Of a stretch of DNA of 44,202 nt, positions 653 to 36,543 are shown one piece after another. Within the stretch, counting starts at the first letter, position 1; each line of letters begins with the position of its first letter. The DNA lies in IMG/VR virus record IMGVR_UViG_3300016675_000235, positions 1 through 44,202 of that record, one strand, 5' to 3'. A program made the translations under genes and the position numbers. The notes beneath the pieces are model-generated. The model saw only the letters and a list, made by a program, of their open reading frames with translations, was not told the origin of the DNA and did no database searches. The DNA is from a virus. Taxonomy: Duplodnaviria; Caudoviricetes.

Positions 653-662
653 AACAGGACAA
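653..662 (+). repeat. AACAGGACAA motif copy in 5' leader of early operon
   Basis: Exact 10-mer just downstream of the predicted promoter, 36 nt before ATG 699. Confidence 0.7.
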
Positions 663-698
663 ACCCACGGATAGGGGGAAAACTAAACAAATAACACA

Positions 699-932
699 AT
701 GGACTATCTTCAAAAAATTATCATTGAAAATGAATCTTCAAGAGAAGAAATCAAAGAAATAATTGATGCAAGGGCTGAAGAGTGGGAAACCACTGCCGAT
801 ATTGATGATGATGGAACCGTGTCATTCAATTGGAGCCAAGATCAATTAGACCTGGATTTTCACCACAACGAAGAGGAAATAGTTGAATCAATCATATCTG
901 ATTTGAAGTCAATACTTCCTGACTTGTTTTAA
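699..932 (+). CDS. Small, highly acidic hypothetical protein
   Basis: 77 aa ORF, A-rich leader typical of Bacteroidota, first gene after promoter; D/E rich. Confidence 0.7.
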   Translation: MDYLQKIIIENESSREEIKEIIDARAEEWETTADIDDDGTVSFNWSQDQLDLDFHHNEEEIVESIISDLKSILPDLF

Positions 933-977
933 GATCACTGACCACAAAAAATCATTAACACTTAACCAATAGAAATT

Positions 978-1178
978 ATGAAAACTCAACTTGAAAAAAT
1001 CAAAGAAAGCAAAAAAGGAATGTCAGTTGATTTTTACATAGCTGCGTTCAAAGACGGTTCGGTTAGCGAACCAATATCCATGCAGTCTGTACCAAGTCCA
1101 CTAGAGGGTGATTACGTCCGTATTTTCAAAAAAGATACGGAGGCGGAATTAAATGCAAAGTTAGGATCAATGCTATAA
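978..1178 (+). CDS. Hypothetical protein
   Basis: 66 aa ORF with A-rich leader, MKT start, co-oriented in operon. Confidence 0.7.
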   Translation: MKTQLEKIKESKKGMSVDFYIAAFKDGSVSEPISMQSVPSPLEGDYVRIFKKDTEAELNAKLGSML

Positions 1179-1194
1179 TAACCAACCACGAAAC

Positions 1195-1204
1195 AACAGG
1201 ACAA
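1195..1204 (+). repeat. AACAGGACAA motif copy abutting ATG 1204
   Basis: AACAACAGGACAATG; the last A of the motif is the A of ATG. Confidence 0.85.
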
Positions 1205-1677
1205 TGGAAACGACAATAGAATTGACATCGGAATTGAAAGCGTTCATCGAGCGCAACGGGTATTTTTACGGCCTTGATTACAACTTCTCGGGGCTCAAAC
1301 CTATTTGGAAAGAGCCATCCCAGAGGATCATTGAAAAGGCATCCAAGGATTTGGCCTTGTTTGAGGAGCGCCAAAAGGCAATCGAAGCAAGGACCGCTAT
1401 TTCGGAGGGCGACTTCATCATCCGTAAGGACGGCAGCATGGAGCGTATTTCCGTGGCCTCCCATGGTTGGGTTCAGGCTGGGAAAAGCAATGGATCCATC
1501 TACATAAACAAAAACGGCCACGGGTCATTTTCAGGTTCCTGCGGGGATTCAATCAAGGCATACGAGCCGACCAATGACACTGCGCCTGGGATTTGCTGGA
1601 TATTTTCGGGGGATAGTGCCGGTGCCCATCGTGCCGTTTACAGTAAGTTGAACTTCAAAATTTGGAAAGAATCATGA
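1204..1677 (+). CDS. Hypothetical protein (possibly DUF4121-like)
   Basis: 157 aa ORF; C-terminal SFSGS..CWIF..AGAHRAV..FKIW pattern; family call tentative. Confidence 0.7.
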   Translation: METTIELTSELKAFIERNGYFYGLDYNFSGLKPIWKEPSQRIIEKASKDLALFEERQKAIEARTAISEGDFIIRKDGSMERISVASHGWVQAGKSNGSIYINKNGHGSFSGSCGDSIKAYEPTNDTAPGICWIFSGDSAGAHRAVYSKLNFKIWKES

Positions 1678-1769
1678 AAACACTGCAATACATTCTGATA
1701 GGGGCTATGGTAGCCCTTATCATCTTCACCGGAATCAATATGATAATCGTTAACCCATTGATAGGATGA
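1674..1769 (+). CDS. 31-aa single-TM membrane peptide (not in ORF track)
   Basis: MKTLQYILIGAMVALIIFTGINMIIVNPLIG; ATGA overlaps with both neighbours. Confidence 0.7.
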   Translation: MKTLQYILIGAMVALIIFTGINMIIVNPLIG

Positions 1770-1960
1770 ACACCGAACTTTCAAACCTGGACAGGCTATT
1801 CCTAGAGAAGGCCATCAAAGACACTCCGACCTTAAAGGTTGGGGTGTCGGTCCCCAAAAGCATGAACAAGGGATTCTCTGACCTGCCTTTGTTTGAGCAA
1901 AAATCTAGGCAAACCGATCTATTCACCTTAGCCAATGAATCAAATGGTGATAGGAAGTAG
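1766..1960 (+). CDS. Hypothetical protein
   Basis: 64 aa, ATGA coupling to upstream peptide. Confidence 0.6.
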   Translation: MNTELSNLDRLFLEKAIKDTPTLKVGVSVPKSMNKGFSDLPLFEQKSRQTDLFTLANESNGDRK

Positions 1961-2168
1961 GAACGTCAGGGCCATTGCGGGCACGATAGCGAACCGCAGG
2001 AAGTCTCTAGGGATGACTCAATCGCAGTTGTCCGAACGGTCAGGTATAAGCCAGGGAATGATATCCATGATTGAGTCGGGGACCAAGCGCCCGGCTATCG
2101 GTATGCTTGTGTCGATCCTGGAAGCTTTGGAGCTTGTATTGAAGATTGAGGAAAATAAAAAGTCTTGA
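1935..2168 (+). CDS. XRE/Cro-family HTH transcriptional regulator
   Basis: IANRRKSLGMTQSQLSERSGISQGMISMIESGTKRP..L..ILEALEL, canonical HTH_3 pattern. Confidence 0.9.
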   Translation: MNQMVIGSRNVRAIAGTIANRRKSLGMTQSQLSERSGISQGMISMIESGTKRPAIGMLVSILEALELVLKIEENKKS

Positions 2169-2185
2169 TTTTGGATTAAGGAGTG

Positions 2186-2219
2186 AAAATCCCCGCAGTA
2201 AGCCTGCGGGGATTTTTTT
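2186..2219. terminator. Bidirectional intrinsic terminator
   Basis: AAAATCCCCGCAG-TAAGC-CTGCGGGGATTTTTTT between convergent genes. Confidence 0.85.
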
Positions 2220-2682
2220 ATGGTCTGTTAGTCCAATCTACTTTTCTCATTTTCCTGCTAGGGATAAACAGCCTGAGCCATGGGTAATCCAAGATAACCA
2301 CTCGGTTCCCGATTTTCCCGAAATTACTCATTTTCAGGTCCGAAAACAGGGAGGGGACGTGAGAAGGTAGCTCCTCGATTGATTTAATCGGTTTGGCCCG
2401 TTTCTGGATCAGGACTTGAGATGTCTCGTTGATCCTGACACAAGGACAAAGCCATGGTGATAGATAGTCCCAAAACCTGTTGTCGCACCAATTTCGGTAC
2501 TCGCAGGCGTTGCAGAACTGTCCGGTACTCATGTCCCGCTCAATCTTTACCACGTAGTTCTTATTTCCCTTCAATTCATATACGTCCCTGTAAGTGCCTT
2601 GGGCAATAAGTTCGCCGCAGATATTCTTGATTGTGGTTTGGATGTCGTTGTCAAGGTGTTTGGATACTTCTGATAGTTTCAC
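2218..2682 (-). CDS. Minimal protein-kinase-fold protein
   Basis: Gly-loop-like IAQGTYRDVY, VVKIE lysine, catalytic loop DLKMSN, DFG-like LDYP in the correct order. Confidence 0.65.
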   Translation of the reverse strand: MKLSEVSKHLDNDIQTTIKNICGELIAQGTYRDVYELKGNKNYVVKIERDMSTGQFCNACEYRNWCDNRFWDYLSPWLCPCVRINETSQVLIQKRAKPIKSIEELPSHVPSLFSDLKMSNFGKIGNRVVILDYPWLRLFIPSRKMRKVDWTNRP

Positions 2683-3097
2683 GGGTATTTGTGTTTATGC
2701 TGATTATTCGTTCAATAGCTGATTTGACATAATTCTCTTTGTTTACATTACCCATGCAACTTGCGGGGTGGGGTAACTTGACAATCCTTGCGTTTGTAAG
2801 CAAGAAATTTTTCTGCACCCAATTCCCGAGCAAGACAATTATATCATCTTCATTTGGTTCATACTTAGAGTTCCAAGTTAAATTACTAGACCAGATTTCC
2901 TTTTTATCATTAGGTAAATACTCAACCTCACACAGGTTTGATTTAATCGAATGACAAGGCAGTTGCTTAATTATTAGGTCAATCATTTTACCGGACATTG
3001 TTTTACTGTCCAGTGGCTTCATGCCGGGCTTATTGTGCATACCGACAAAAAATACCTTTCGATGATTAATTGTTGGTTTTTGTTCAGTTGTTATCAC
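2651..3097 (-). CDS. Uracil-DNA glycosylase superfamily-like protein
   Basis: VFFVG..KP, SGKMID, IIVLLG, KLPHPAS motifs in UDG-fold order. Confidence 0.6.
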   Translation of the reverse strand: MITTEQKPTINHRKVFFVGMHNKPGMKPLDSKTMSGKMIDLIIKQLPCHSIKSNLCEVEYLPNDKKEIWSSNLTWNSKYEPNEDDIIVLLGNWVQKNFLLTNARIVKLPHPASCMGNVNKENYVKSAIERIISINTNTRETIRSIQTP

Positions 3098-3630
3098 GGC
3101 GAAATGTGTTTGTGTTGATTATCGCAATTATCTTTGATCTTCCCGGTTTTGGATGTGTTACGGCACCAAGCGCAGTATTTACCATGCTCGGATTTGACTT
3201 CGGCGCAGAATTTATCCGATTGTCTTTTTTTATTGTATTGCTCAAAGTAGAACCTCCCATCAAACGGTTTGTCGGGTGTAATCCCGAAATATGCAGCTAT
3301 CCTCAATAGGCTTTTCTTGTGATTGATCGTACTCGGTACAGTCGGATTTTTCGGAAGTTTTGCCAATCGCTCGTGAAGTCCGCCAAGTAACCAAGTTCGG
3401 AACAGATGGAGAGAAAGGCTTGACTTGTAATTGTTGATAGCTCTTTGACATGGCACCATGTTGTCGATCCTGTGCGCATCGGGAAACATTGGTTCTTTGG
3501 TCCATGAGCACCTAATCAATGGTTCAATATGATCTACCTGCCAATCGTCCTCCAAATCCGTTCCTGAATAGGCACATTTTCCGCCAAACTTCATACGGAT
3601 CATTTCACGGTCTTTTTTGGATATTCTCAT
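3094..3630 (-). CDS. HNH endonuclease-like protein
   Basis: GGKCAYSG..WQVDHIEP..NMVPCQRAINNYKS. Confidence 0.8.
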   Translation of the reverse strand: MRISKKDREMIRMKFGGKCAYSGTDLEDDWQVDHIEPLIRCSWTKEPMFPDAHRIDNMVPCQRAINNYKSSLSLHLFRTWLLGGLHERLAKLPKNPTVPSTINHKKSLLRIAAYFGITPDKPFDGRFYFEQYNKKRQSDKFCAEVKSEHGKYCAWCRNTSKTGKIKDNCDNQHKHISP

Positions 3631-3866
3631 ATCGTTTTCTTGACATCAGGAACTTGATCTATCTCGATGGTCTGAGTTGCTCTTACGCATTTGTAGCCGT
3701 AGTTTTTCTTGAAGAACTGCATTGTTTCATTGGTGTGCTTAAGGAATGCCTTTATACTTTCACTTTTCGTCCTCTTAAAAGACCACCAAATAAAAAGAGC
3801 GTCTTTTTTCTTTCGGTTAGGATGACTCTCAGTCATTACTACCCAGCCTTTGACTTGTGTTTTCAT
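3627..3866 (-). CDS. Hypothetical protein
   Basis: Likely ATG at 3866 (MKTQVKGW); stop overlaps the next ATG (ATGA). Confidence 0.6.
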   Translation of the reverse strand: MKTQVKGWVVMTESHPNRKKKDALFIWWSFKRTKSESIKAFLKHTNETMQFFKKNYGYKCVRATQTIEIDQVPDVKKTI

Positions 3867-4404
3867 GGTTCTGGTATATAGGATCATTCCAAGCAATAAT
3901 CTGCCCGACAAACGGGCTCGGATACTTAAACCATGAATTGAAATCCTCCACAGTCAATCCATCATTTTTGGAGACTTGCTCAATGTCGGTATCATACCCA
4001 TCTACAAGTAAAGGCCATTCTATCCCCTGCGGCATTGTGTTGTGAAAAACTTCAAAGTCATAACACTTAACTTTTAGAGGCGGGCATATCTTGATCTGAG
4101 GGCTTGCGTAAGGTTTCCCGGACCATACCGCAAGTTGGATTTCTTCACCTGTCTCGAAGTGGTGCCCGGCTCGGATGGTGTGGTGTTTTTCCTCGTATTC
4201 CTTTTCCCAACCGATCGACAAGTAGAATGAAAGGATCATTTCCTTGTCTTTGCCTGAATTCAACTTGACAAGCATCTCCAAGTACTCCTCAGAATAGCAA
4301 TCGATCAAGAGTGAATTCAGAACCTTTTCTACAAAGTAGGTTTGCTCCCCGTGCCTGATGTGGCCTTTCGGGAATCGTTTCGATAGTGTGCGGACTTTAG
4401 GCAT
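3829..4404 (-). CDS. ASCH/PUA-like domain protein
   Basis: KHHTIR..GEEIQL..WSGKPY and NDGLTVEDFNSWF..GQIIAW motifs. Confidence 0.6.
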   Translation of the reverse strand: MPKVRTLSKRFPKGHIRHGEQTYFVEKVLNSLLIDCYSEEYLEMLVKLNSGKDKEMILSFYLSIGWEKEYEEKHHTIRAGHHFETGEEIQLAVWSGKPYASPQIKICPPLKVKCYDFEVFHNTMPQGIEWPLLVDGYDTDIEQVSKNDGLTVEDFNSWFKYPSPFVGQIIAWNDPIYQNHENTSQRLGSND

Positions 4405-4801
4405 TGTTTGAATTTTTTAATAATTCTGAAACCCTTTGAATTAGCTTGTCTCTCTCAATCTTTAGTAGCAAATACTTTTTCTTGAAATTACTCTTTGAGC
4501 CTTTTGCCTCGGACGGATCAAGTATTCCGGCATTCTGTACCAATTTTTCGATCATGTTGGCTTGCTGCTGAATTTTCTCCTTTTTTTCTTCAAGTTTTTG
4601 TTCTAGTCTAACTACTTGGTGCTTTGCCTCGTCACGTTCAGATGTCAGCATGCCGATTTCTATTTCAAGACGCTTGATTTGGGATTTCAATAACAGATTG
4701 ACGAAAAACGGGTCCTTATTGAAAGGTTCATCCTCTCCGTTTTCTGATGGCTTTTTTATTGTTGATTCCCTATCCATTCTGCGCTTGTTTAAATTTATCA
4801 A
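4397..4801 (-). CDS. Coiled-coil hypothetical protein
   Basis: 134 aa with heptad-rich central region; start uncertain. Confidence 0.6.
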   Translation of the reverse strand: MINLNKRRMDRESTIKKPSENGEDEPFNKDPFFVNLLLKSQIKRLEIEIGMLTSERDEAKHQVVRLEQKLEEKKEKIQQQANMIEKLVQNAGILDPSEAKGSKSNFKKKYLLLKIERDKLIQRVSELLKNSNNA

Positions 4802-5597: not shown

Positions 5598-5645
5598 AGT
5601 TTTATATTTTATGACGCATAAATATAAGAAAACTTATTGAATATA

Positions 5646-6698: not shown

Positions 6699-6708
6699 TT
6701 GTCCTGTT
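6699..6708 (-). repeat. AACAGGACAA motif copy before ATG 6696
   Basis: Minus strand AAAAACAGGACAATTATG. Confidence 0.85.
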
Positions 6709-7316: not shown

Positions 7317-7955
7317 TCAAATCATTTTTGATAGGTCGGTCCCTTTTTTGATACAGTCAAGGATAAACAGCTTCCATATTTTGTTGCGGACGGAGGCTTT
7401 TAGCTCTGATTCCCCAAAAAACGGCCTGTCCAGCCTCAGCATCTTTTTTTGTTGGTCGGTGACAAAATCAAGGTTGTACCTGGATTCAACCAATACTCCC
7501 TTGTCAACCATCTTGTTGTACCAATACGGCGCCCATTCATCCAGGTCCGGGACATTTCCCGATTTCGATTTTTCCCAATTGGCTTTGAACCTCTGCTTGC
7601 CCATTTCGATCCAATATTCCTTCTCCTCCTGGCTTACTTCTGATTCCTTCTCGATCGGCTGCAGCTCCAAAAGAATCTGCCGCTTGTTCGACTCGTGGTA
7701 CCTGTTGATCCATTGGGTAAGAGTCCGCTCGTTCAGTCCGTAGAATTCGCCGTAGTTTCCCCTCAGCCCGTGGTTCAAAATGTATTCAAGTCTTTTTTCG
7801 TTTAACCACTTGTATGACTTGATCCCCTCGTACAGGCAGTCGATAAGCCTTTGCTTGTCCTCTTTTGAATACTCCCTGAACTGTTTCAGTCCAGCGATAA
7901 ATTCAAGGTTGTTGCAAGCCTCGAAGATGATTTCTTTTTTTGTCCTGGTTTTCAT
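7317..7955 (-). CDS. Hypothetical protein, possible replication partner (helicase-loader position)
   Basis: 212 aa, ATG overlaps stop of putative initiator; function inferred from position only. Confidence 0.65.
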   Translation of the reverse strand: MKTRTKKEIIFEACNNLEFIAGLKQFREYSKEDKQRLIDCLYEGIKSYKWLNEKRLEYILNHGLRGNYGEFYGLNERTLTQWINRYHESNKRQILLELQPIEKESEVSQEEKEYWIEMGKQRFKANWEKSKSGNVPDLDEWAPYWYNKMVDKGVLVESRYNLDFVTDQQKKMLRLDRPFFGESELKASVRNKIWKLFILDCIKKGTDLSKMI

Positions 7956-8674
7956 TTGTCCTCTAGGTTAAATTCATTTTTGTCGAATACGGCTATCGTT
8001 GTGGACTTCGGTTGTTTCTGCTTTTCTGGCTTGAAATTCCGCATCCAATTGTTGAAGGAATTCTGCATTTCCGATATCGTATCGAATACCCTTTCCTCGT
8101 TGTACTCGATCCATTTTTTCAACTGGTCGTCCATCTGTTCGGTATTGACCGAATGTACCTTGGCAATTTTTGAAAAGAAATTTCCTGACAAGGAATTTTC
8201 ATTGAAAATTTGAAAAGCCTGCGAAGCTGTATATACAGTTTTATTGTTAATTGGTTTATTGTATAATTGTTTATCTATACTATCAGTGCTTTGTTGCGTG
8301 CTTTCTCTGTGCTTTGTTGCGTGCTTTATCAATGCTTTGTCAAGTGCTTTGTCAAGTGCTTTGTCAAAATTTGATAGAGCAATTATGTTGCTGGAGTATT
8401 GGTTCCTCGATTTTTCATACAAATCGAACAGCCCGAAATTGACAAGATCGTTAAAGGTGGCTATGTAGGTGTTGTAGCTTTTTATTCCGATTGCTTCCAT
8501 TACCATGGTCGTGGGAAGTCCGAACTTTTGCTTCCAGCCAAGCCTATTGCAATGCTCGATTGCGAAAAAGTACAGGGCGCAATGGTTCGGCTTTATCTTG
8601 TCCGGATTTTCAAACGCATAATCCCAAAACGCCCTTGATAGAGAATATGAGTCCATTTGGATTTGGTTAGTCAT
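7952..8674 (-). CDS. Putative replication initiator
   Basis: N-terminal wHTH-like region (ALYFFAIEHCNRLGWK..F..MEAIGIKSYNTY..L), repeat-encoded linker, helical C-terminus (FNNWMRN); contains iteron-like repeats; ATGA start at 8674. Confidence 0.65.
   Translation of the reverse strand: MTNQIQMDSYSLSRAFWDYAFENPDKIKPNHCALYFFAIEHCNRLGWKQKFGLPTTMVMEAIGIKSYNTYIATFNDLVNFGLFDLYEKSRNQYSSNIIALSNFDKALDKALDKALIKHATKHRESTQQSTDSIDKQLYNKPINNKTVYTASQAFQIFNENSLSGNFFSKIAKVHSVNTEQMDDQLKKWIEYNEERVFDTISEMQNSFNNWMRNFKPEKQKQPKSTTIAVFDKNEFNLEDK
8286..8367. repeat. Seven phased (G/A)TGCTTT repeats; candidate replication origin iterons
   Basis: Copies start at 8286, 8298, 8309, 8321, 8332, 8344, 8356 (11-12 nt spacing), next to an AT-rich tract at ~8230-8285. 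Confidence 0.7.
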
Positions 8675-9025: not shown

Positions 9026-9141
9026 GGCTTTGTCCTGTTTTTGCGTACAACAATCAGTAAAACCACGGCCAATGTGATGTTGGCCGTGGCAATTATGGTC
9101 CCGAACAGGGTTAATACAACCAAATCAAGTATTGGACTCAT
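9022..9141 (-). CDS. 39-aa membrane peptide (not in ORF track)
   Basis: MSPILDLVVLTLFGTIIATANITLAVVLLIVVRKNRTKP; fills the gap between DUF4494 and the next peptide. Confidence 0.55.
   Translation of the reverse strand: MSPILDLVVLTLFGTIIATANITLAVVLLIVVRKNRTKP
9030..9039 (-). repeat. AACAGGACAA motif copy before ATG 9025
   Basis: Minus strand AAAAACAGGACAAAGCCATG. Confidence 0.8.
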
Positions 9142-9559
9142 AGGGGAAAACTTCGAGTATTTTTGTCTCCACAACGTCGGGTACCTGAAATGAAACAAGC
9201 ATGTTTTTTAACGATTCCTGGATCCTCTCGTGCGCCTGGGGAACATCGGAGGCTGTCACAAGCATGTATTGAGTGACCTTCTTTTCTTTTCCTGAATCTG
9301 AATCTGCGACAATGTACTGGATTTTAGCCTTGAACCACGGATTCCCGTCTCCATGATCAAACACATCCACAATGTTGCTTTTTGCAATATGGGTGACTTG
9401 GAAGTCTCCCCGGACCCGTTCGCCCATTTCCTTGTAAATAATCGACTCTGCCTCGGTGAATGAAACCGCATCGAGAAGGTATTTTTCCGATACCCATTTA
9501 AGCAGTCCCTGTTCGTTTTCCTTTACGTACTTCACGCGCACTTCATACCATGTCCTCAT
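9125..9559 (-). CDS. DUF4494 family protein (Bacteroidota)
   Basis: MRTWYEVRVKY..ENEQG..VSEKYLLDAVSFTEAE..WFKAK..DSDSGKEKK..LV.A..ETKILEVFPY. Confidence 0.9.
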   Translation of the reverse strand: MRTWYEVRVKYVKENEQGLLKWVSEKYLLDAVSFTEAESIIYKEMGERVRGDFQVTHIAKSNIVDVFDHGDGNPWFKAKIQYIVADSDSGKEKKVTQYMLVTASDVPQAHERIQESLKNMLVSFQVPDVVETKILEVFPYESNT

Positions 9560-10946: not shown

Positions 10947-11146
10947 GTAAGATCAATTAACCTTTTGCTCATGATATTCCGAACCTCACTTGGCAGAACT
11001 CCTTTGTCCTCCAAGATATTACCGCCTTCATCAATATATTTCATCCCAGCCTCCAGGACCTTTATATCTGATTGAAGTCTTTGACAAAGAGCGTGCATAT
11101 CTCCACGCCTTTTGTCAATGTCCAATTTTTGTTGTGATGGTGTCAT
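10943..11146 (-). CDS. Hypothetical protein
   Basis: 67 aa, directly after recT. Confidence 0.6.
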   Translation of the reverse strand: MTPSQQKLDIDKRRGDMHALCQRLQSDIKVLEAGMKYIDEGGNILEDKGVLPSEVRNIMSKRLIDLT

Positions 11147-11149
11147 GTC

Positions 11150-12028
11150 CTAGAAATCCATTTTGGCTTGGGCCTGCTGCTTTGGTGTTTCGGGCTGCTG
11201 CGGCTCTGGTTTTTCCTCTACGATCGTCGCTTCCTCGTCAAAATCAATGGATACCGAATTTGCCTTTTGCTCCTTTGCCAATTTCATTGCCGCATCCGGA
11301 GCCGCCAAATCACTCTCGGAGTCATCATCCATGTTTTCGGATTCAACCGACGAGTTTATGGCGATTTTCAGGGCCCTTGAAATGGCTGTTTTCTTTGCCA
11401 TTTCCCCCGTGAATCCAGAATGCGCCGGGGAGCCTCCCTTTGCTGCACCCATGTTCCAGGATTTCTTGATTTCGGCCAATGTCATTTCCTCCAATCTTGA
11501 TGTGCCATCGGTGAAAATCACGATTGCATAGGCTCCCTTGATGTTTGCGTCGTCCCTGTTGTCAAAGGGACTGGTGTGCTTGATCAACCTCCTGCGCCCC
11601 GTGTCGGTGTTGATTTCGGAAACATACTCGTCCTTTGCGTAAATGACGTTTGCATTGACCTCCTTTACGCCAGCAATCCGCTTTGAAAGCGCAATTCCTC
11701 CCATGTAGGACCGCATGTAAACCAATTGGTTCCCAGCTACCATGAAGTAACATTGGTTCAGCGCAGGGTTCATTCCCTGTGTGACCATTTTGAGCATGCT
11801 GTTTGCCACGCTTCCCTTGGTACATACCTCCATGGCGGCCTTTCCGTTTTTGTCCTTTACGTCTTGAAGGACAAGGAATGCGCTTCTTATTGCATTCCCT
11901 ACGTGATACCCCGAAGGAAGCATGATGTTCCCTAGATTCACAAGGTTTTCCACCTGTGAAATGATTTGGTCTTGGAGTTCCTTTTTGGCGACCGCTGCTT
12001 GGTTTGTGTTTTCCGATACTTGTGTCAT
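11150..12028 (-). CDS. recT: RecT/Redbeta-family single-strand annealing protein
   Basis: SVAN..MVTQGMNP..QCYF..RSYMG..A.VIY..D..GAYA..MT..EI..SW..F..EMAKKTAI.RA.K. Confidence 0.9.
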   Translation of the reverse strand: MTQVSENTNQAAVAKKELQDQIISQVENLVNLGNIMLPSGYHVGNAIRSAFLVLQDVKDKNGKAAMEVCTKGSVANSMLKMVTQGMNPALNQCYFMVAGNQLVYMRSYMGGIALSKRIAGVKEVNANVIYAKDEYVSEINTDTGRRRLIKHTSPFDNRDDANIKGAYAIVIFTDGTSRLEEMTLAEIKKSWNMGAAKGGSPAHSGFTGEMAKKTAISRALKIAINSSVESENMDDDSESDLAAPDAAMKLAKEQKANSVSIDFDEEATIVEEKPEPQQPETPKQQAQAKMDF

Positions 12029-14309: not shown

Positions 14310-14327
14310 TGATTGTCTTGTTTAGTT

Positions 14328-14582: not shown

Positions 14583-14597
14583 TTGTCCTGTTGTTGT
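14583..14597 (-). repeat. Extended motif copy ACAACAACAGGACAA abutting ATG 14582
   Basis: 15-nt perfect complement to the sRNA at 15249-15322. Confidence 0.85.
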
Positions 14598-14601: not shown

Positions 14602-14919
14602 TTAAAAATCCCGTAACTCTTGCTTTACGGTCGCCTGGTGTTTTTGCCTATCCTTGTAGCTTTCACCCCTTAATGAGGGCGTAAGCTCTTGGATTTTCTG
14701 CCTCATTCTCCTGATTGCCTCGGGACTGCTTAACGATGCAACCTCTTGAATCACTTTTCGCCTATTCACAAGTTCATTGGAATAGTTCTGCAGCCCTACT
14801 TTTTCAACAAGTTCCTGCTGCCAGATATTTTGGATCAGCCTCATATCGTCATCCCTGCAATGCGGATGCTCGATTAGGACCTTTTCAATCCTATTCCGAA
14901 GCTTCTTGTTCCTCAGCAT
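14602..14919 (-). CDS. Hypothetical protein
   Basis: 105 aa; L..HP..RDDD..L..IW and PEAIRRMRQKIQE motifs common in phage proteins. Confidence 0.7.
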   Translation of the reverse strand: MLRNKKLRNRIEKVLIEHPHCRDDDMRLIQNIWQQELVEKVGLQNYSNELVNRRKVIQEVASLSSPEAIRRMRQKIQELTPSLRGESYKDRQKHQATVKQELRDF

Positions 14920-15154
14920 TCAGCTTCTTCAATTTGGTTTTCAAATCCTTACGTCGCTGCGCCAACTCCGTAAGTACCTCAATCACGTCGTCATTCTCCG
15001 TAGTACCGGAGAGAACGGCATAAACCGATTGTCGGATCGGCGCTTTTTTTCCAGGGAATTTTTCTTTCCAGATTCTTTCAAAGTGGTGGTAGTATTTCCC
15101 TGGAAGCTGCTTTTTAAGCGTTTCCAAATCGTTTTGATCAAATAGTTTGTCCAT
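14891..15154 (-). CDS. Putative small DNA-binding regulator, first gene of the replication operon
   Basis: 87 aa; RQSVYAVLSG..N..VIE.L recognition-helix-like segment; position after promoter. Confidence 0.55.
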   Translation of the reverse strand: MDKLFDQNDLETLKKQLPGKYYHHFERIWKEKFPGKKAPIRQSVYAVLSGTTENDDVIEVLTELAQRRKDLKTKLKKLNAEEQEASE

Positions 15155-15186
15155 GCTAAATATAGGTTTGTTTGTAATTACACATT

Positions 15187-15194
15187 CAAATGTA
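15187..15194 (-). promoter_or_regulatory. -7 promoter element for the leftward replication operon
   Basis: TACATTTG matches TAnnTTTG, 32 nt before ATG 15154; -33 element not clear. Confidence 0.55.
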
Positions 15195-15248
15195 ATCTTT
15201 TCGATTTGATTTGGAAAAATTTTCTATAAAATTTATTTACGTAATGAC

Positions 15249-15280
15249 AAAAAATAAAGCCCGTCGATCAAAACGGGCTT
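15249..15280 (-). terminator. Intrinsic terminator of the sRNA
   Basis: AAGCCCGT-TTTGATCG-ACGGGCTT followed by TATTTTTT. Confidence 0.8.
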
Positions 15281-15322
15281 CGGGAGAAAAGTACAACAAC
15301 AGGACAATTGCGGACTTCTCTC
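15249..15322 (-). ncRNA. Candidate trans-acting antisense sRNA (~72 nt)
   Basis: Own promoter and terminator; stem GAGAGAAGU/ACUUUUCUC, upper stem GCAAU/GUUGU, apical loop UGUCCUGUU complementary to the repeated AACAGGACA start-site motif. Confidence 0.7.
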
Positions 15323-15324
15323 TG

Positions 15325-15354
15325 CAAAGATAAATACGTTTCCCGTTAAAACAA
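15325..15354 (-). promoter_or_regulatory. Consensus Bacteroidota promoter driving the sRNA
   Basis: TTG (15354-15352), 19-nt spacer, TATCTTTG (15332-15325) followed by CA. Confidence 0.75.
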
Positions 15355-15384
15355 CAAACCCCGAACATTTCTGCTCGGGGCTTT
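15348..15384 (-). terminator. Intrinsic terminator ending the tRNA/ncRNA transcript
   Basis: AAAGCCCCGAGCA-GAAA-TGTTCGGGGTTTGTTGTTTT with GNRA loop and G-U pairs on the minus strand. Confidence 0.8.
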
Positions 15385-15618
15385 GTGCTTGAATTTATCT
15401 TCGATTGGCTTGTCCAAGCAACTCCTTTTCCTTTTCAACCAAACCAATCTATTCGGCATTCGGGCCAAAACCTATCTTTGACACATGGTAGCTATATCCA
15501 CACATCAAAGCTCGCTGTAACGGGGAGACTCTACTTTCGTAGATACGTGCAAAAACCTGAATTAGCTAGTTTCAAATTGTCGCACTTGTGATTGCTCGCC
15601 TCCCCTTCCGGGGTTCAT
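15385..15618 (-). ncRNA. Candidate structured ncRNA downstream of tRNA-Met
   Basis: Helices GGGGAGGC/GUCUCCCC, GUGCGA/UUGCAC, UUUGAA/UUCAGG, UCUAC-GAAA-GUAGA, CUUUGAUGUGUGG/CCAUGUGUCAAAG, GAUUGGUUUG/CAAGCCAAUC; G-U pairs work only on the minus strand. Confidence 0.65.
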
Positions 15619-15619
15619 G

Positions 15620-15693
15620 TTGCGGTGGCAAGATTTGAACTTGCGATCTTTGGATTATGAGTCCAACGAAGACGGCCACTCCTCTACACCGCA
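15620..15693 (-). tRNA. tRNA-Met (CAT), initiator-like scaffold
   Basis: TGCGGTG/CACCGCA acceptor, GAGG/CTTC D stem, TTGGA-CTCATAA-TCCAA anticodon arm, GCAAG-TTCAAAT-CTTGC T arm; CCA not encoded. Confidence 0.93.
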
Positions 15694-15734
15694 TGTCAAA
15701 TTTGAAAGATAATTTTTACAAAAGCAACCCAATG

Positions 15735-16346
15735 TTACTTTTTTTTCAATGAAACCAAATTGATTTTGATGTTTGCTGTAATCAACGGATCATTAAGATA
15801 CCTTGGCCTTGGCGTGTAGTCCACGTTTGCCATAAATCCGTTGCCCAGGTATGCAGCACCGATTTGGTAATCGAATTGGTTGGAGAATCCGCCACCGACA
15901 AAAATACCCTTTTGGATGATGGTTGTCTCCGCCGTTTTTTCGGTTGTGATCGTATTGGTGACTACCGGTATTCTGAAATCGGTCCGCAGGCTTGTTTTCC
16001 TTACCTCCCCGAGGACTTCTCCTTCAAAATAGGCATTTCCATACAAAAGCGGGAACGTGGCTGAAAACGCCTGGATTTTCGGCACATATCCCGGAGCAAG
16101 TATGGTGTCACGCAATACGGTATGCTTGATTTCAACCTTTGGCTTTTTGCCCAATGCTATTTCCAAGGAATCCGCATAATTGGATAGTGCGGAATATTCG
16201 GCCAACAAGGTTGAATCCACCCTTGTTTCTATTTTGGTGTGTTCCTTGTAAACAGTATCGACAACTGGATCCAATAAGAGTCTTGCAATCACAAACCCGG
16301 CGATCCCCCCGAGAATCAAAATAGCGATGTATGGGTAGTATTTCAT
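15735..16346 (-). CDS. Membrane-anchored lysis accessory protein (spanin-like position)
   Basis: N-terminal TM, C-terminal beta-strand GIFVGGG..YQIGAAY pattern; TAATG coupled to endolysin. Confidence 0.55.
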   Translation of the reverse strand: MKYYPYIAILILGGIAGFVIARLLLDPVVDTVYKEHTKIETRVDSTLLAEYSALSNYADSLEIALGKKPKVEIKHTVLRDTILAPGYVPKIQAFSATFPLLYGNAYFEGEVLGEVRKTSLRTDFRIPVVTNTITTEKTAETTIIQKGIFVGGGFSNQFDYQIGAAYLGNGFMANVDYTPRPRYLNDPLITANIKINLVSLKKK

Positions 16347-30778: not shown

Positions 30779-30820
30779 TGGTTGGTATTTGTTTTTAGTT
30801 GGTTTGTTCTCTATTCTTTA

Positions 30821-31861: not shown

Positions 31862-31878
31862 AAGCGTTGTTTTAAATG

Positions 31879-31929
31879 CAAAAAGGCCCTGCCTTCCACT
31901 ATCGGAAAGCAGGGCCTCAGAAGGCTTTT
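31879..31929 (-). promoter_or_regulatory. Terminator-like hairpin in the leader of the head operon
   Basis: AGGCCCTGCTTTCC-GATAGT-GGAAGGCAGGGCCT-TTTTG ending ~18 nt before ATG 31861. Confidence 0.65.
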
Positions 31930-32018
31930 ATGTATTAGGTTCTACTTTGAGGCACTAATATTGCCTAAATATAACAATTTGTCAAAATCTTGAATATTTT
32001 TTTTTGATTTTGTTCAAA

Positions 32019-32426: not shown

Positions 32427-32710
32427 CGTTTCCTTTTGGCAATTTCTCCACGGACGACCTGCGCCACTTGCTTAACGCCTCCCTTGGTGTAGCTGCGTTT
32501 CAGTTCCTTTTCAGTGCTTTGGTAGATGATGGTAGGCACTTTCAAAAGGTACTCTTTGTTGGGATCAATTGTTTTGGCGATAGGCTGCTTGCCATATCCG
32601 GTCAAAAGCAACTCCCATCCCATTATCGGCTCCTCGGTCATTATCTGCTTTTGGATATCCCCGAGTTTTTCCGCAATCGCTTTTAGCTTGCGGGATGTCT
32701 TTTTTTTCAT
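32423..32710 (-). CDS. Basic hypothetical protein
   Basis: 95 aa in coupled operon. Confidence 0.6.
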   Translation of the reverse strand: MKKKTSRKLKAIAEKLGDIQKQIMTEEPIMGWELLLTGYGKQPIAKTIDPNKEYLLKVPTIIYQSTEKELKRSYTKGGVKQVAQVVRGEIAKRKR

Positions 32711-32871
32711 TCTACCCTCCTTACTTTGGCTTCACCAAACATTAGTACCGCAATATTGACCATCCACCCGTTTTCTGCTTTGTACGACGGATCAACCTTT
32801 TCCCGTGAATCACTTACCTCTATCACCGGATTACGGTAGGATAGTGATTTTTTCTGTCTGTGTTTTTTCAT
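32707..32871 (-). CDS. 54-aa hypothetical protein (not in ORF track)
   Basis: MKKHRQKKSLSYRNPVIEV..; ATGA overlaps at both ends. Confidence 0.55.
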   Translation of the reverse strand: MKKHRQKKSLSYRNPVIEVSDSREKVDPSYKAENGWMVNIAVLMFGEAKVRRVE

Positions 32872-33593
32872 GATGGAAATAGCATTAACTGTGATTTAAA
32901 GTTGTTGAATCGTTTTTCCTGTTTTGTCCAATATTCCGAATTTATTTCAAATGCAGTAAAATCACACCCAGCCAAATACGCTTCAATCCTGATTGAGCCT
33001 CCTCCAAGATGTGTGTCAAGTAACTTCATTCCTCTGAACCCATAATCGCTAATGAGTTTTCTGTAAAGAAGTCTTGGCTTATGGCAAGGATGTAATCTTT
33101 TTTCATTTAGCTTTTTGTTCCCCTGTTGAACCATTGGTTCGGATAGGCTTTTTGCCTGCATCATTCCCGACCATAACAAATCTATCTCCTCAACATGATC
33201 AATCATTGAGGCGTAAGCCATTTCATACTCTTTAAAACTTACACCTTCCGCAACACCCTTGTTCCACTTTATCCTTCCCGGACCAAGCCCAACCCAATCA
33301 ACATATTCAACACCAAAAATTATTTGCTCTTTGCTTACCCGTCTTAATTCATCAAAATAAGACTGGCTTGGAGGTTTTAAATCCCAATCATATTGAGTGT
33401 ACGGTTTTTTGTTTTTGTTTCCGTTGATTCTTGATCCATTTCTTTGTTTGATCGTAGTTGATACCTCCTTTAAAAATGGCATGTTTGCCACATTTATCCC
33501 ATACGGTATGTCGCAGATAGCCAAATCGAAAATTTTGTCTGGAAATCTTTTCATGCCGATTTCACAATCCTGTTGGTAAACCACGCTTTCCAT
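32868..33593 (-). CDS. N6A/N4C DNA methyltransferase (beta order), DIPY variant
   Basis: DLAICDIPYG, HPCHKP, LLDTHLGGGS, FEINSEY; real start probably 33593 (TAATG overlap). Confidence 0.85.
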   Translation of the reverse strand: MESVVYQQDCEIGMKRFPDKIFDLAICDIPYGINVANMPFLKEVSTTIKQRNGSRINGNKNKKPYTQYDWDLKPPSQSYFDELRRVSKEQIIFGVEYVDWVGLGPGRIKWNKGVAEGVSFKEYEMAYASMIDHVEEIDLLWSGMMQAKSLSEPMVQQGNKKLNEKRLHPCHKPRLLYRKLISDYGFRGMKLLDTHLGGGSIRIEAYLAGCDFTAFEINSEYWTKQEKRFNNFKSQLMLFPS

Positions 33594-33838
33594 TATCCCA
33601 ACTTTCTCAGCCACTCCCATTTGGCTAGTTTTTCCTCCAATAGCTGTTTGTGGACCTCGTTGTTTCTCACAAGACCAGCCTGCATGACCGAATAGTCCCA
33701 TTTTCTGCGCTCCGACGATCTCAACGCAAGGTTCCATCGGTTCATAACCTTGTTGATCCCCTTGACACGGCTTTTCTCGACCTCTTTATGGATGTCGGAA
33801 ACCACCCACCTATAAATGAATCGAAATAGTTTTTTCAT
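33593..33838 (-). CDS. Hypothetical protein
   Basis: 81 aa, coupled to both methylase genes. Confidence 0.6.
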   Translation of the reverse strand: MKKLFRFIYRWVVSDIHKEVEKSRVKGINKVMNRWNLALRSSERRKWDYSVMQAGLVRNNEVHKQLLEEKLAKWEWLRKLG

Positions 33839-34905
33839 ACAAAAAGACCTAATTCCTTATAAATACGTTTTTCAGCAATCTTAATATATGTTGGATTCAA
33901 TTCAAATCCAATGTAGTTTCTATTGAGTTTTCTGGAAACAATTGCCGTCGTACCGGCACCCATAAAGGGATTAAGAACAATCCCACCTTCGGGGCAACCT
34001 GCTTTAATGCAATCCACGATCAAATTCTGTGGAAATGTGGCAAAATGGGCTTCTGAAAATGGCTTTGTCGATACTGTCCACACGGATCGCTTGTTGGCTC
34101 CGTCTTTTACTTCATAATACTCATTATTGCTGTTTCCGCTTGGTTTTACTCCCAATCCATTGGCCTGTCCTCTTGAAAACGATTTTTCTCCGAGTTTTAT
34201 CTTTCGACCATTGTTAGTTGCTATTGCTGTTTTCCCTGTATCAAACGATGAGCCCTTCCATGATGAAACAGCCTTCATTTTTCCGTTTGTTTTTCCAGGT
34301 ACACGGTCGCTTCCTTCTTGGTTCTGTATGTCTTGGCTCAGTCGCTGTATGGAACTATCGGTTAAATTTTGCTTTATAGAATCATGATCATAGTAGTACT
34401 TCGGAGACTTACTGAGTAAAAAGATATACTCATGTGATTTGGTACATCTATCAGTCACACTTTCTGGCATTGGATTAGGTTTGTGCCAAATGATATCTTG
34501 CCTCAGATACCATCCATCTGCACGTAAGGCAAAGGCAACCATCCAAGGAATACCGACCAGGTCTTTTGGTTTTAGTCCGTTTGGAACACCAAGATTAGGA
34601 TATTGAGAATCTCCGAGATTTCTTTTCCCAATTGATGGGTCGCCTCCTCCTGATTTTGATGGATTAGCATAGCTATCCCCAAGATTCAACCAAAGAGTAC
34701 CATCAGGCTTTAATACCCGTTTTACTTCCCTGAATACGTTCACAATGTTTTGCACATATTCCTCTGGAGTTTTTTCAAGCCCAAGTTGTTCTTCCTGACC
34801 ATAGTCCCTTAACCCCCAATAAGGCGGAGACGTGACGCAACAATTCACCGACTCATTAGCAAGTGGAAGCGGATTTTTGACGTTGTGTTGTATTATCTTG
34901 TTCAT
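33835..34905 (-). CDS. N4C/N6A DNA methyltransferase (beta order)
   Basis: TSPPYW, LWLNLGDSY, IIWHKPNPMPESV.DR, HFATFP, NPFMGAGTT. Confidence 0.92.
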   Translation of the reverse strand: MNKIIQHNVKNPLPLANESVNCCVTSPPYWGLRDYGQEEQLGLEKTPEEYVQNIVNVFREVKRVLKPDGTLWLNLGDSYANPSKSGGGDPSIGKRNLGDSQYPNLGVPNGLKPKDLVGIPWMVAFALRADGWYLRQDIIWHKPNPMPESVTDRCTKSHEYIFLLSKSPKYYYDHDSIKQNLTDSSIQRLSQDIQNQEGSDRVPGKTNGKMKAVSSWKGSSFDTGKTAIATNNGRKIKLGEKSFSRGQANGLGVKPSGNSNNEYYEVKDGANKRSVWTVSTKPFSEAHFATFPQNLIVDCIKAGCPEGGIVLNPFMGAGTTAIVSRKLNRNYIGFELNPTYIKIAEKRIYKELGLFV

Positions 34906-35018
34906 ACAAACAACGGATCTCCTGTTCTTTGGTCGATATCTACAATAGGTTTTCTGCTTGGTTTTGGCGCTTTACCTTTCAGCACCATTTGGAGAATCTT
35001 TCTGATCGCTTTTTTCAT
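34902..35018 (-). CDS. 38-aa basic peptide leading into the methylase genes
   Basis: MKKAIRKILQMVLKGKAPKPSRKPIVDIDQRTGDPLFV; start marked by motif; ATGA overlap with methylase. Confidence 0.6.
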   Translation of the reverse strand: MKKAIRKILQMVLKGKAPKPSRKPIVDIDQRTGDPLFV

Positions 35019-35418
35019 TTGTCCTGTTGTTTTTATAGTCCCTGAATTCAAAATATTTGCCCGAAAACATTTCCGTGATTCCTTCGCATCCCCGGCCAAG
35101 CTGGAATTGCACACATTCACGCTTGCCCTCCAATACTTCGTTGACCAGTACCAGGATTTCCCGTTGTTGGTCGGTTGTCAGCCGCCCTATCGGTTCGGTA
35201 TCCCTGAATGCCATCATCGTTTTTTGGTAGGCTTTCAGATACCCCTTGGATGCCCGGTACCTTTCCTTTGACATCCGTACTCCATTTGAGTTGTAGAGAA
35301 GGTCGGTCATCTCGTCCAACTGATCGAAACTATCCCTGAACTGCTGCATCACATATCCGGGATTGAAGCCCTTTTCCGAGGAAAAGAACCGTATCTTTTC
35401 TGGGTCGTATTTTTCCAT
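34972..35418 (-). CDS. Hypothetical protein
   Basis: ~148 aa, first gene of leftward methylase operon. Confidence 0.6.
   Translation of the reverse strand: MEKYDPEKIRFFSSEKGFNPGYVMQQFRDSFDQLDEMTDLLYNSNGVRMSKERYRASKGYLKAYQKTMMAFRDTEPIGRLTTDQQREILVLVNEVLEGKRECVQFQLGRGCEGITEMFSGKYFEFRDYKNNRTNEKSDQKDSPNGAER
35019..35031 (-). repeat. Motif copy AACAACAGGACAA abutting ATG 35018
   Basis: 13-nt perfect complement to the sRNA. Confidence 0.8.
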
Positions 35419-35488
35419 CAATAGAATCGGTTTGCTAAATTAACGGAAAATTTTTCCAAAAATGAAATTCGATATTTTTTTTCCATTA

Positions 35489-35521
35489 TTTGCTTTTTAT
35501 GTTACGTTTTATATACATTTG
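35489..35521 (+). promoter_or_regulatory. Consensus Bacteroidota promoter, probably leaderless transcript
   Basis: TTTG (35489-35492), 21-nt spacer, TACATTTG (35514-35521); ATG only 4 nt later. Confidence 0.7.
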
Positions 35522-35525
35522 AATT

Positions 35526-36119
35526 ATGAATCTCAGGACAAACCCATTTGATCGTTTCCTTTCAAAGGAACAGGTCATGCAAGCGGAGGTAGCCCGGCGG
35601 CTATCAATAGAACATCCCGACGTTTTTTGGTGGCATACCCACAACGAAGGAAAAAAATCCCCATTTGAGCAATATCTGTTCAAAAAAATGGGCGGCCATT
35701 CAGGTGTTTCGGATTTTGTCATTCTGGAGGAGTCCAACTTTTCAAAAGGACTTATGCTGGAGTTGAAGTTTGGGGCCAACAAATGCACTAGAAACCAGGT
35801 GGAATTCATGAAACATGCCGCCAAAAAAGGATTTACATGCTGCGTGGTGTATAACCATCATCAGGATGCGGTGAATATCATCAATAGGCACCTTGGTTCG
35901 GGTATTGGGATTCTTCCAAACGACGGAATTTTGCTCGTCAAAGGATCGGTTGAAAAGGTGATACCCTTTTCCCAGGCGCTTGATGTCCTTTGCAGCAAGT
36001 CAAAGGAAAAGGAGCAGGTAAAAAAGTTGTTTTCCAAAAAAGCATCATCGAAATTCGGTAAGTCAGTCCCAGGAAAGTTGTTTCAATCATCCAAATCAGG
36101 AGACAGTAAGTTGGGTTAA
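35526..36119 (+). CDS. VRR-NUC (PD-D/ExK) nuclease, possible resolvase
   Basis: E...Q, HTHNEG, GVSDF, LELK, Q.EF...A..G motifs. Confidence 0.85.
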   Translation: MNLRTNPFDRFLSKEQVMQAEVARRLSIEHPDVFWWHTHNEGKKSPFEQYLFKKMGGHSGVSDFVILEESNFSKGLMLELKFGANKCTRNQVEFMKHAAKKGFTCCVVYNHHQDAVNIINRHLGSGIGILPNDGILLVKGSVEKVIPFSQALDVLCSKSKEKEQVKKLFSKKASSKFGKSVPGKLFQSSKSGDSKLG

Positions 36120-36159
36120 TTGTTAATTGAGGTCGCCAGTGCCTTACAGTGGTGAATTT

Positions 36160-36243
36160 GGTCAAGTGGCGGGAAGGATATGCGCAATGAGTAGGCAAGT
36201 AAAATCTACACATCACTCACAGGTTCGAGTCCTGTCTTGACTG
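36160..36243 (+). tRNA. tRNA-like element with non-canonical anticodon arm
   Basis: Acceptor GGTCAAG/CTTGACT, D arm GCG..GG..CGC, T arm ACAGG-TTCGAGT-CCTGT; central arm GTAGG-CAAGTAAAA-TCTAC lacks U33 and a 7-nt loop. Confidence 0.65.
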
Positions 36244-36249
36244 CAACGA

Positions 36250-36514
36250 TTGCTTGTATTTGAAGTTCTTTCAAGACCCGGGTTCGATACCCGGCACTTC
36301 CACCGACCGTCGCCGGTTATAGAGGATAAGGCAATAGCGGAAACGCTTAGAGCAAACTCCTCTTGTTCATTATGGGGGTGACTGGCTTTGATTGGATGTA
36401 ATGTGTAGGATACGCAAAATGGCAATTGTTACAACAAACGGCAAAACCGTTTTAATTTCTCGCCCAGTTGCTAGAGTAGCTGCGTAAGAGGTCCGCCCCG
36501 AACCAAATCGGGGC
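36250..36514 (+). ncRNA. ssrA: Circularly permuted (two-piece) tmRNA
   Basis: Acceptor piece ~36250-36304 (GAC, CCGGG-TTCGATA-CCCGG, CACTTCC-A-CC) precedes coding piece from 36374 (GGGGGTG-ACTGGCTTTGA); G3-U70 pair; tag frame 36440-36487 GKTVLISRPVARVAA-stop. Confidence 0.88.
36495..36514 (+). terminator. Hairpin closing the tmRNA coding piece
   Basis: GCCCCGA-ACCAAA-TCGGGGC followed by AAATTTT (weak U-tract). Confidence 0.5.
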
Positions 36515-36533
36515 AAATTTTGAAACTAAACAA

Positions 36534-36543
36534 AACAGGACAA
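36534..36543 (+). repeat. AACAGGACAA motif copy before ATG 36546
   Basis: AAAACAGGACAAATATG. Confidence 0.85.

What the first reader, a model, noticed from the sequence alone, without database searches (positions are those of the whole stretch)
653..36543. AACAGGACAA motif marks translation starts of non-structural genes on both strands
Seen by eye: exact copies at 653(+), 1195(+), 6699(-), 9030(-), 14583(-), 35019(-) and 36534(+), all in mRNA sense. Six end within 4 nt of an ATG (one overlaps it) and one sits at a predicted transcript 5' end. Two more copies are the sRNA template (15298) and one antisense inside a gene (37269). A rough base-composition estimate gives about 0.1 copies expected by chance. 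Partial copies lie at other starts: CAGGACAA in codons 3-6 of the VRR-NUC gene (35534), AGGACAAATG plus CCAGGACAA around ATG 7955, AACAAGACAAT before 14309, and TAGGACATG at 11146. I saw no exact copy before head or tail genes. AGGA is mostly too close to the ATG for a Shine-Dalgarno, and Bacteroidota largely do not use one. The motif could be the sRNA target or a site for an RNA-binding protein.
Basis: seen in the sequence. Interest (0 to 1): 0.8.

Follow-up and report, generated by a model that had tools for sequence, protein, structure and literature searches.

The report
Phage start tag with antisense RNA
A Bacteroidota-type phage puts one private 10-letter tag at the start of seven of its non-structural genes or transcripts and carries a predicted small hairpin RNA whose loop is the mirror image of that tag, so one RNA likely pairs with those messages and turns down their translation.

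Summary
Confirmed: 9 exact AACAGGACAA copies against 0.16 expected; 6 of 9 end within 4 nt of a start codon, one opens a predicted leader, none precedes a virion or lysis gene. The window is a podovirus-like Bacteroidota phage. The copy at 15298 is antisense inside a predicted 74-nt promoter-hairpin-terminator RNA whose hexaloop UGUCCU is the tag's complement. A complete relative (G003, capsid 60% identical) has a differently built unit at the same place with the same loop; its flank changed (GU to CG) and so did its tags. The tag is clade-specific, too weak and too close for a Shine-Dalgarno, and rare in other Bacteroidota DNA. Best reading (0.6): a trans-acting antisense RNA blocking initiation at heads of early/middle gene blocks. 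Against: two temperate relatives carry variant tags but no antisense unit in their (trimmed) records; no RNA data. It works like P1 c4 RNA and resembles Cluster K start-associated sequences, but is neither. Phages with the RNA lack the repressor-like and integrase genes their temperate kin have at that spot. This scan noted the same design in at least eight other phage genomes (unchecked AI notes).

The parts
15249..15322 (-). Predicted ~74-nt two-hairpin small RNA (seed hairpin plus intrinsic terminator)
   Evidence: MFE -30 kcal/mol, z=-6.5; only TAnnTTTG-plus-short-terminator unit found in the window; no Rfam family at gathering score; counterpart in G003/G010
15325..15332 (-). TATCTTTG, exact match to the Bacteroidota -7 promoter box, ahead of the small RNA
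   Evidence: sequence; consensus TAnnTTTG from PMC7366714 passage; G003 has TATATTTG at its unit
15298..15307 (-). Anti-tag UUGUCCUGUU; hexaloop UGUCCU (15306-15301) predicted fully unpaired
   Evidence: unpaired probability 1.0 for the six loop bases in window and G003
15256..15281 (-). Terminator hairpin with U-rich tail on the minus strand only
   Evidence: 3 of 8 pairs change on both sides between window and G003
653..662 (+). Tag at the predicted 5' end of the rightward early leader (before a hairpin and ATG 699)
   Evidence: the same leader carries each phage's own tag version in G001, G003, G010, G004
1195..1204 (+). Tag overlapping ATG of 157-aa ORF 1204; 14-nt match to the RNA
6699..6708 (-). 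Tag 2 nt before ATG 6696 (218 aa); 12-nt match
9030..9039 (-). Tag 4 nt before ATG 9025 (44 aa), head of the block leading to the 8674 gene; 10-nt match
14583..14592 (-). Tag abutting ATG 14582, upstream of the SbcC-like/RecT genes; 15-nt match
35019..35028 (-). Tag abutting ATG 35018 (38-aa ORF whose stop overlaps the methyltransferase start); 13-nt match; tag kept at this place in G001, G002, G003, G004
36534..36543 (+). Tag 2 nt before ATG 36546, behind the permuted tmRNA; 10-nt match
35534..35541 (+). Partial tag CAGGACAA in codons 3-6 of the nearly leaderless VRR-NUC-like nuclease gene
   Evidence: also in G001 and G003 orthologues, absent from G002
7940..7962 (-). Two partial tags around ATG 7955 (AGGACAA before, CAGGACAA in codons 3-6)
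14313..14322 (-). One-mismatch tag AACAAGACAA before ATG 14309
9551..9556 (-). AGGACA directly after ATG 9559 (DUF4494 gene)
11146..11151 (-). AGGACA overlapping ATG 11146
14891..15154 (-). Cro-like first gene of the leftward early operon, just downstream of the RNA (label inferred from position; four-helix model, no significant fold match)
37269..37278 (-). Exact copy antisense inside ORF 37193; probably chance

Best explanation
AACAGGACAA sits at the starts of non-structural phage genes, and a predicted 74-nt phage RNA carries its exact complement in a hairpin loop, so the RNA likely pairs with these messages and would block ribosome loading on them. Proposed steps: (1, inferred) host RNA polymerase makes the RNA from the TATCTTTG box to the terminator; (2, predicted by folding) the open loop UGUCCU nucleates on AGGACA and the weak A-U/G-U upper stem opens to give 10-15 base pairs; (3, inferred) the duplex covers the A-rich region just upstream of, or the first codons after, the AUG, which Bacteroidota ribosomes need unstructured; (4, inferred) because tagged genes mostly head tightly overlapping gene blocks, repression spreads to recombination, replication, methyltransferase and nuclease genes while virion genes are spared. 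Whether this holds the phage quiet or shuts early genes off late in infection is open; its position where temperate kin have repressor and integrase favours the first.
For: Tag enrichment and position. The one intergenic copy not at a start is antisense in the only promoter-plus-short-terminator unit of the window, z=-6.5; the seed hairpin folds at -14.6 on the minus strand and -7.9 on the plus strand. G003 and G010 have a unit at the same locus with the same 12-nt core, the same hexaloop and otherwise different sequence (z=-5.0). The pair below the loop is C-G in the window and G-C in G003 (folds), and the tags follow: sites matching one RNA longer than the other favour the own RNA 3 of 9 to 0 (window), 4 of 11 to 0 (G003), 4 of 8 to 0 (G010) (3:0 vs 0:4, p=0.029, sites not independent). 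A gene present in G010 but not G003 has the G003-type tag. 7 of 9 tagged starts vs 9 of 36 untagged non-structural starts have an upstream gap of 15 nt or more, p=0.006. Not an SD: AGGA-ATG spacing 2-7 nt, pairing to the anti-SD about -4 kcal/mol vs -12 for a control. Private: ACAGGACA-N0-6-ATG occurs 17 times in 152 kb of three clade phages, 0 in two distant phages, 5 times in 2.16 Mb of five Bacteroidota replicons.
Against: G002 (tag AACAGGAAA, 8 of 11 copies near an ORF start) and G004 (tag AATCAGGAA, 8 of 15) have tags but no antisense promoter-hairpin-terminator unit in the held records; G004 is rated 100% complete, although both records stop at gene ends beside the integrase. The hub test was negative: the antisense copy ranked 4 of 10, 6 of 12 and 4 of 9 in similarity to the other copies, and tag-RNA covariation is also expected if all copies simply share a genome consensus. 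Only two independent RNA versions exist here; 28 of 500 shuffles reach the structure scores. G003's unit has a weak U-tail and was missed by my stricter script, and the looser script also returned two in-gene hits in G003. The core CAGGA never changes across six genomes, as a protein or ribosome site would behave. The 653 tag is 36 nt from its AUG, outside the initiation region. No partner protein was identified.
Confidence: 0.6

Rival explanations
1. The tag is a binding site on the mRNA for a phage or host protein (CsrA-like in logic) or a phage-specific initiation enhancer; the antisense RNA is a later add-on in some lineages or has no role.
For: CAGGA core invariant while flanks drift; tags without a visible RNA in G002 and G004; hub test negative. 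CAGGA resembles the CsrA site (recalled, from no call).
Against: No CsrA family hit among 60 window proteins or 30 selected G003 proteins; a decoy RNA would carry the sense motif, but the unit folds and terminates on the antisense strand; the most highly needed virion genes lack the tag.
Confidence: 0.17
2. The motif is an asymmetric DNA site (operator or stoperator) for a monomeric phage regulator, oriented with transcription.
For: Oriented with transcription on both strands; one copy at a predicted transcription start (653); in G002 two half-sites form an inverted repeat just behind the cro-like promoter; in G004 a copy lies in the repressor-like gene's leader about as far from the cro-like ATG (140 nt) as the window's 15298 copy (147 nt). 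L5 stoperators are asymmetric, oriented and intergenic (PMC9283540 passages).
Against: Tight spacing to AUG and copies in the first codons; the 15298 copy opposes its local predicted transcript, has no ORF behind it on the plus strand and sits in an RNA-type loop with G-U pairs in two phages; window, G003 and G010 have no homologue of the repressor-like gene.
Confidence: 0.12
3. The RNA pairs with the tags but activates, stabilises or terminates the transcripts rather than blocking initiation.
For: The 653 tag is at a transcript 5' end before a conserved hairpin, a layout suited to termination or stability control; P4 CI RNA acts on termination (recalled).
Against: Six of seven exact tags touch the start codon region, where a duplex would hinder initiation; low structure there enhances initiation in Flavobacterium (PMC7797042 passage).
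Confidence: 0.08
4. Ordinary Shine-Dalgarno or generic Bacteroidota translation enhancer.
For: Contains AGGA and an A-rich context.
Against: Weak anti-SD pairing and 2-7 nt spacing; Bacteroidetes ribosomes sequester the anti-SD (PMC7797042 abstract); no enrichment in G005, G006, BF1-TP2, BKO1-TP3 or in five Bacteroidota replicons. The probable host genus itself was not tested.
Confidence: 0.03

Closest known systems
c4 antisense RNA of phages P1/P7 (PMC12197685, passages read)
   Same: Small phage RNA, complementary sequence presented in loops, pairs in trans near a ribosome-binding region of a phage mRNA; specificity differs between related phages.
   Different: c4 is described as acting on the ant mRNA; here one loop matches 7 exact and about 5 partial sites across the genome. 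No Rfam match. Host group is SD-blind and, in Bacteroides, lacks obvious Hfq/ProQ (PMC7366714 passage).
Start-associated sequences (SAS) of Cluster K mycobacteriophages and Cluster EF Microbacterium phages (PMC3203893, PMC7302621, passages read)
   Same: Asymmetric private repeat, 11-19 copies, a few nt before starts of non-structural genes with an upstream gap; function unknown; four K1 phages have one opposite-orientation copy not at a start.
   Different: Different sequence and host phylum; SAS contains a true AGGAG SD core and half have 17-bp inverted repeats (not seen as a family); no RNA partner was proposed from the reverse copy in the passages read.
L5-type stoperators (PMC9283540, passages read)
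   Same: Many asymmetric, transcription-oriented sites in short intergenic spaces.
   Different: DNA sites for a protein repressor; here the RNA-bearing phages lack the repressor-like gene and one copy is an antisense RNA loop.
P4 CI RNA and N15 CA RNA (recalled, not read)
   Same: RNA-based control encoded just upstream of the early operon.
   Different: Those act on one transcript by termination; no sequence or structure test against them beyond the blank Rfam scan.

Membership tests
c4 antisense RNA (Rfam C4) | Match to the Rfam covariance model | tested here: not met
   no hit at gathering score in the window or at E<=10 in 15100-15800
c4 antisense RNA (Rfam C4) | Complementary sequence exposed in a loop | tested here: met
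   predicted only:
c4 antisense RNA (Rfam C4) | Target is the antirepressor (ant) mRNA | tested here: not met
   no antirepressor family among 60 window proteins; contig is 57% complete
Cluster K SAS/ESAS | 13-bp consensus with AGGAG SD core | tested here: not met
   different 10-mer; anti-SD pairing about -4 kcal/mol
Cluster K SAS/ESAS | Asymmetric repeat a few nt before starts of non-structural genes with an upstream gap, one reverse copy | tested here: met
Cluster K SAS/ESAS | Linked 17-bp inverted repeats | tested here: inconclusive
   none among the listed repeat families (top families only)
trans-acting base-pairing phage sRNA | Discrete transcript is made | not testable with these tools
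   no RNA holder listed
trans-acting base-pairing phage sRNA | Seed and targets change together | tested here: inconclusive
   direction right in all informative sites but only two RNA versions and the hub test was negative
CsrA/Rsm system | CsrA-family protein and sense GGA-loop decoy RNA | tested here: not met
   no CsrA hit (G003 only 30 selected proteins; host not examined); unit is antisense
Stoperator system | Phage repressor binding the oriented DNA sites | not testable with these tools
   repressor-like gene of G002/G004 has no homologue in window, G001, G003, G010
Shine-Dalgarno element | Strong anti-SD pairing 7-9 nt before the start | tested here: not met

The most novel reading that the evidence does not exclude
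An RNA has taken over the repressor's job: phages of this clade that lost repressor and integrase keep, in the same spot, a 74-nt RNA that silences about ten early and middle genes through a private tag, giving RNA-only immunity or dormancy with specificity set by a few flank bases; the same design would explain the unexplained start-associated sequences of Cluster K mycobacteriophages, whose single reverse copy also sits in a hairpin loop.
Probability: 0.25. Interest if true: 0.85.

Novelty: new variant of a known kind. Interest (0 to 1): 0.65.

Why it matters
Described phage antisense RNAs in the review passages read act on one phage message or on host genes. A phage that writes a private tag into many of its own start regions and reads it with one short RNA would be a genome-wide translational switch, here in a phylum whose ribosomes ignore Shine-Dalgarno sequences. 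It gives a concrete, testable mechanism for start-associated sequences, left unexplained in the 2011 and 2020 papers, and a compact loop-and-tag pair that could serve as a translational control part in Bacteroidota.

Tried and rejected
Pattern scans of viral contigs for promoter-plus-seed gave 40 hits, all looking like chance, and 120 hits of a scan stopped at 47 of 64 parts, of which only G003/G010 were real. Both genome-contig scans found no relative, so no host chromosome and no attP-side sequence for G002/G004. A portal-alignment scan gave no new record covering the RNA locus (L255 and L257 were not examined further). An apparent G002 sRNA match at 58236 lies inside the SbcC-like gene: rejected. 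ACAGACGAA in G005 is just M-T-D-E codons: rejected. Hub test negative. A broad loop scan was too noisy and its output was cut. No RNA holder listed, so no reads were laid. Fold search of the Cro-like model gave nothing at E<=0.001; Atlas search of the conserved 148-aa protein gave nothing above the bar. The sigma-70 scan found no promoter, as expected for this phylum. The earlier-findings look-ups by place and by sequence were empty. Paper searches listed no paper on a phage RNA aimed at a shared tag of many own genes; the library lacks most subscription papers. No supplementary files were read; SAS figures S3-S4 of PMC3203893 may bear on the reverse copy.
Full report
Setting. The window is the whole held record, a 44.2-kb linear virus contig rated 57% complete. 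It encodes a small terminase, P22-like portal, SU10-type capsid, an LPD38 polyvalent protein, endolysin, RecT, an SbcC-like ATPase, DUF4494, two methyltransferases and HNH nucleases. Homologues of the capsid and of the cro-like protein are named from Algoriphagus sp. genomes, so the host is probably a Cytophagales member; this is inferred from a relative (G002 type), not shown for the window.

Observation. Nine exact copies against 0.16 expected; top 10-mer under a third-order model. Six of nine end within -1..4 nt of a start (P=3e-13 against random placement, with the caveat that I curated the starts). One (653) opens a predicted leader, one (37269) is antisense in hydrophobic codons and probably chance, one (15298) is treated below. 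CAGGACA occurs at 9 of 44 non-structural and 0 of 14 structural/lysis starts (p=0.067). Tagged starts usually have a real upstream gap: 7 of 9 vs 9 of 36 (p=0.006), so they head blocks of overlapping genes.

The antisense copy. On the minus strand 15332-15249 reads TATCTTTG, then a 74-nt RNA with a seed hairpin and a terminator. TAnnTTTG is the Bacteroides -7 box (PMC7366714, passage). The fold has z=-6.5; the six loop bases UGUCCU are predicted unpaired. The plus strand folds worse (-7.9 vs -14.6 for the seed hairpin) and has no U-tail. It is the only such promoter-terminator unit my script found in the window. Rfam has no family for it. Matches to tagged starts are 10-15 nt.

Relatives. Capsid, cro-like and portal searches gave five usable clade records. 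G003 (complete, terminal repeats, capsid 60%) has 9 AACAGGACAA copies and, between the Rz-like and cro-like genes, TATATTTG, an extra 5' hairpin, a seed hairpin with the same AAU-UGUCCU-GUU top and a different terminator (z=-5.0). G010 shares G003's unit. Terminator pairs change on both sides in 3 of 8 positions, but with two independent sequences 28 of 500 shuffles do as well. The pair under the top is C-G in the window and G-C in G003; tags that match one RNA longer than the other always favour their own: 3 of 9, 4 of 11, 4 of 8 sites, none the other way; G001 (record lacks the RNA locus) has 2 of 7 window-type. A test of whether the antisense copy is the most central copy failed (ranks 4 of 10, 6 of 12, 4 of 9), so covariation alone does not separate pairing from a shared consensus. 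G002 and G004 are proviruses with an integrase and a divergent repressor-like gene beside the cro-like gene (the repressor label rests on position and a weak PHROG hit). They have variant tags, AACAGGAAA (8 of 11 near starts) and AATCAGGAA (8 of 15), at orthologous places, including the conserved leader in G004, but I found no antisense unit in them. Both records end at gene boundaries on either side of the integrase-lysis gap where the window has its RNA, so the question is open; it is the strongest point against the model. Window, G001, G003 and G010 have no homologue of that repressor or integrase (only G003 is complete). Full tags stand before 0 of 43 structural, packaging or lysis homologues in five relatives, bare CAGGA before 3; accessory genes inside the packaging region of G001 and G003 are tagged, so the split is by gene kind, not simply early versus late.

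Controls. CAGGA is not enriched before starts in G005, G006, BF1-TP2 or BKO1-TP3 (3 vs 3.7, 2 vs 2.5, 3 vs 1.8, 0 vs 1.5), while the clade shows 8 vs 2.8 (window), 9 vs 3.7 (G001), 14 vs 4.9 (G004) and weaker, non-significant excess with this crude caller in G002, G003 and G010. ACAGGACA-N0-6-ATG: 17 in 152 kb of three clade phages, 5 in 2.16 Mb of five Bacteroidota replicons, three from a Cytophagales strain; the 10-mer occurs 7 times there. Pairing to the anti-SD is about -4 kcal/mol and AGGA is 2-7 nt from AUG; Bacteroidetes ribosomes sequester the anti-SD and favour unstructured, A-rich initiation regions (PMC7797042, abstract and passages). The true host chromosome was not available.

Mechanism. 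Shown: tag, positions, antisense unit in two divergent phages, matching flank change. Predicted: RNA fold and duplexes of -12 to -26 kcal/mol. Inferred: transcription, pairing in vivo, repression, spread by translational coupling, and the life-cycle role. I put 0.6 on antisense repression, 0.17 on a protein or enhancer site, 0.12 on a DNA operator/stoperator, 0.08 on pairing with another outcome, 0.03 on SD or generic enhancer.

Known systems. It works like c4 of P1/P7 (PMC12197685, passages) but fails the Rfam and target tests. It resembles Cluster K SAS and Cluster EF motifs (PMC3203893, PMC7302621, passages), where the authors left open an RNA or protein reader and noted one reverse copy in four K1 phages; I found that reverse copy in a hairpin loop in Anaya and CrimD, and none in 11 kb of Pixie. 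Stoperators: PMC9283540, passages. PMC13502914 passages list phage sRNAs acting on host genes. P4 CI RNA, N15 CA RNA and the CsrA site are recalled. Searches listed no paper with this design; searches served for background (listings only, except the papers named). Eight earlier notes of this scan describe the same design in other phages; they are unchecked AI notes, came after my reading was formed, and gave me only the c4 review as a lead.

Verdict. Real feature; new variant of trans-acting phage antisense control; interest 0.65.

Noticed in passing
window 36255-36487 (+): Permuted tmRNA (Rfam RF04321, 56 bits; ARAGORN tag GKTVLISRPVARVAA), directly upstream of a tagged gene.
   Followed up: no
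window 36161-36245 (+): tRNA-like element with acceptor and T arms but an odd middle, not called by ARAGORN; G001 and G002 have other tRNA-like or structured RNAs at the same place, G003 none.
   Followed up: no
window 15356-15693 (-): tRNA-Met(CAT) followed by a 260-nt non-coding trailer and its own terminator just ahead of the small RNA promoter; absent from G003.
   Followed up: no
L247:31871-31883 (Anaya) and L260:8839 (CrimD): The single reverse SAS copy lies in an intergenic gap, in the 10-nt loop of a 6-bp GC hairpin, in both K1 phages; none in the last 11 kb of Pixie. In a longer fold of the Anaya region this hairpin was not the minimum-energy form.
   Followed up: partly
G002 59310-59375; G004 1686-1693: G002's cro-like leader holds tag and complement as one hairpin/inverted repeat; G004's repressor-like gene has the tag in its own leader.
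   Followed up: partly
G004 15700-15810 (+) (L103): Promoter-terminator RNA convergent with a 44-aa membrane ORF, type I toxin-antitoxin-like layout; only 7 nt complementary to the G004 tag.
   Followed up: partly
window 653-698 (+): Conserved leader (tag, GC hairpin, AAACTAAAC) divergent from the small terminase gene in five clade genomes; G001 and G004 carry a second tag at its AUG.
   Followed up: partly
window; G003; G002: Other over-represented words: CCCAGGCG (9 copies) in the window, AAGGCCATG in G002 and G003.
   Followed up: no
window 8283-8367: Four 23/12-nt direct repeats inside the 8674 gene, iteron-like.
   Followed up: no
window 40996-44199 (-): 3' end of a large polyvalent protein (LPD38, weak ART-PolyVal; DarB-like PHROG), over 4000 aa in relatives.
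   Followed up: no
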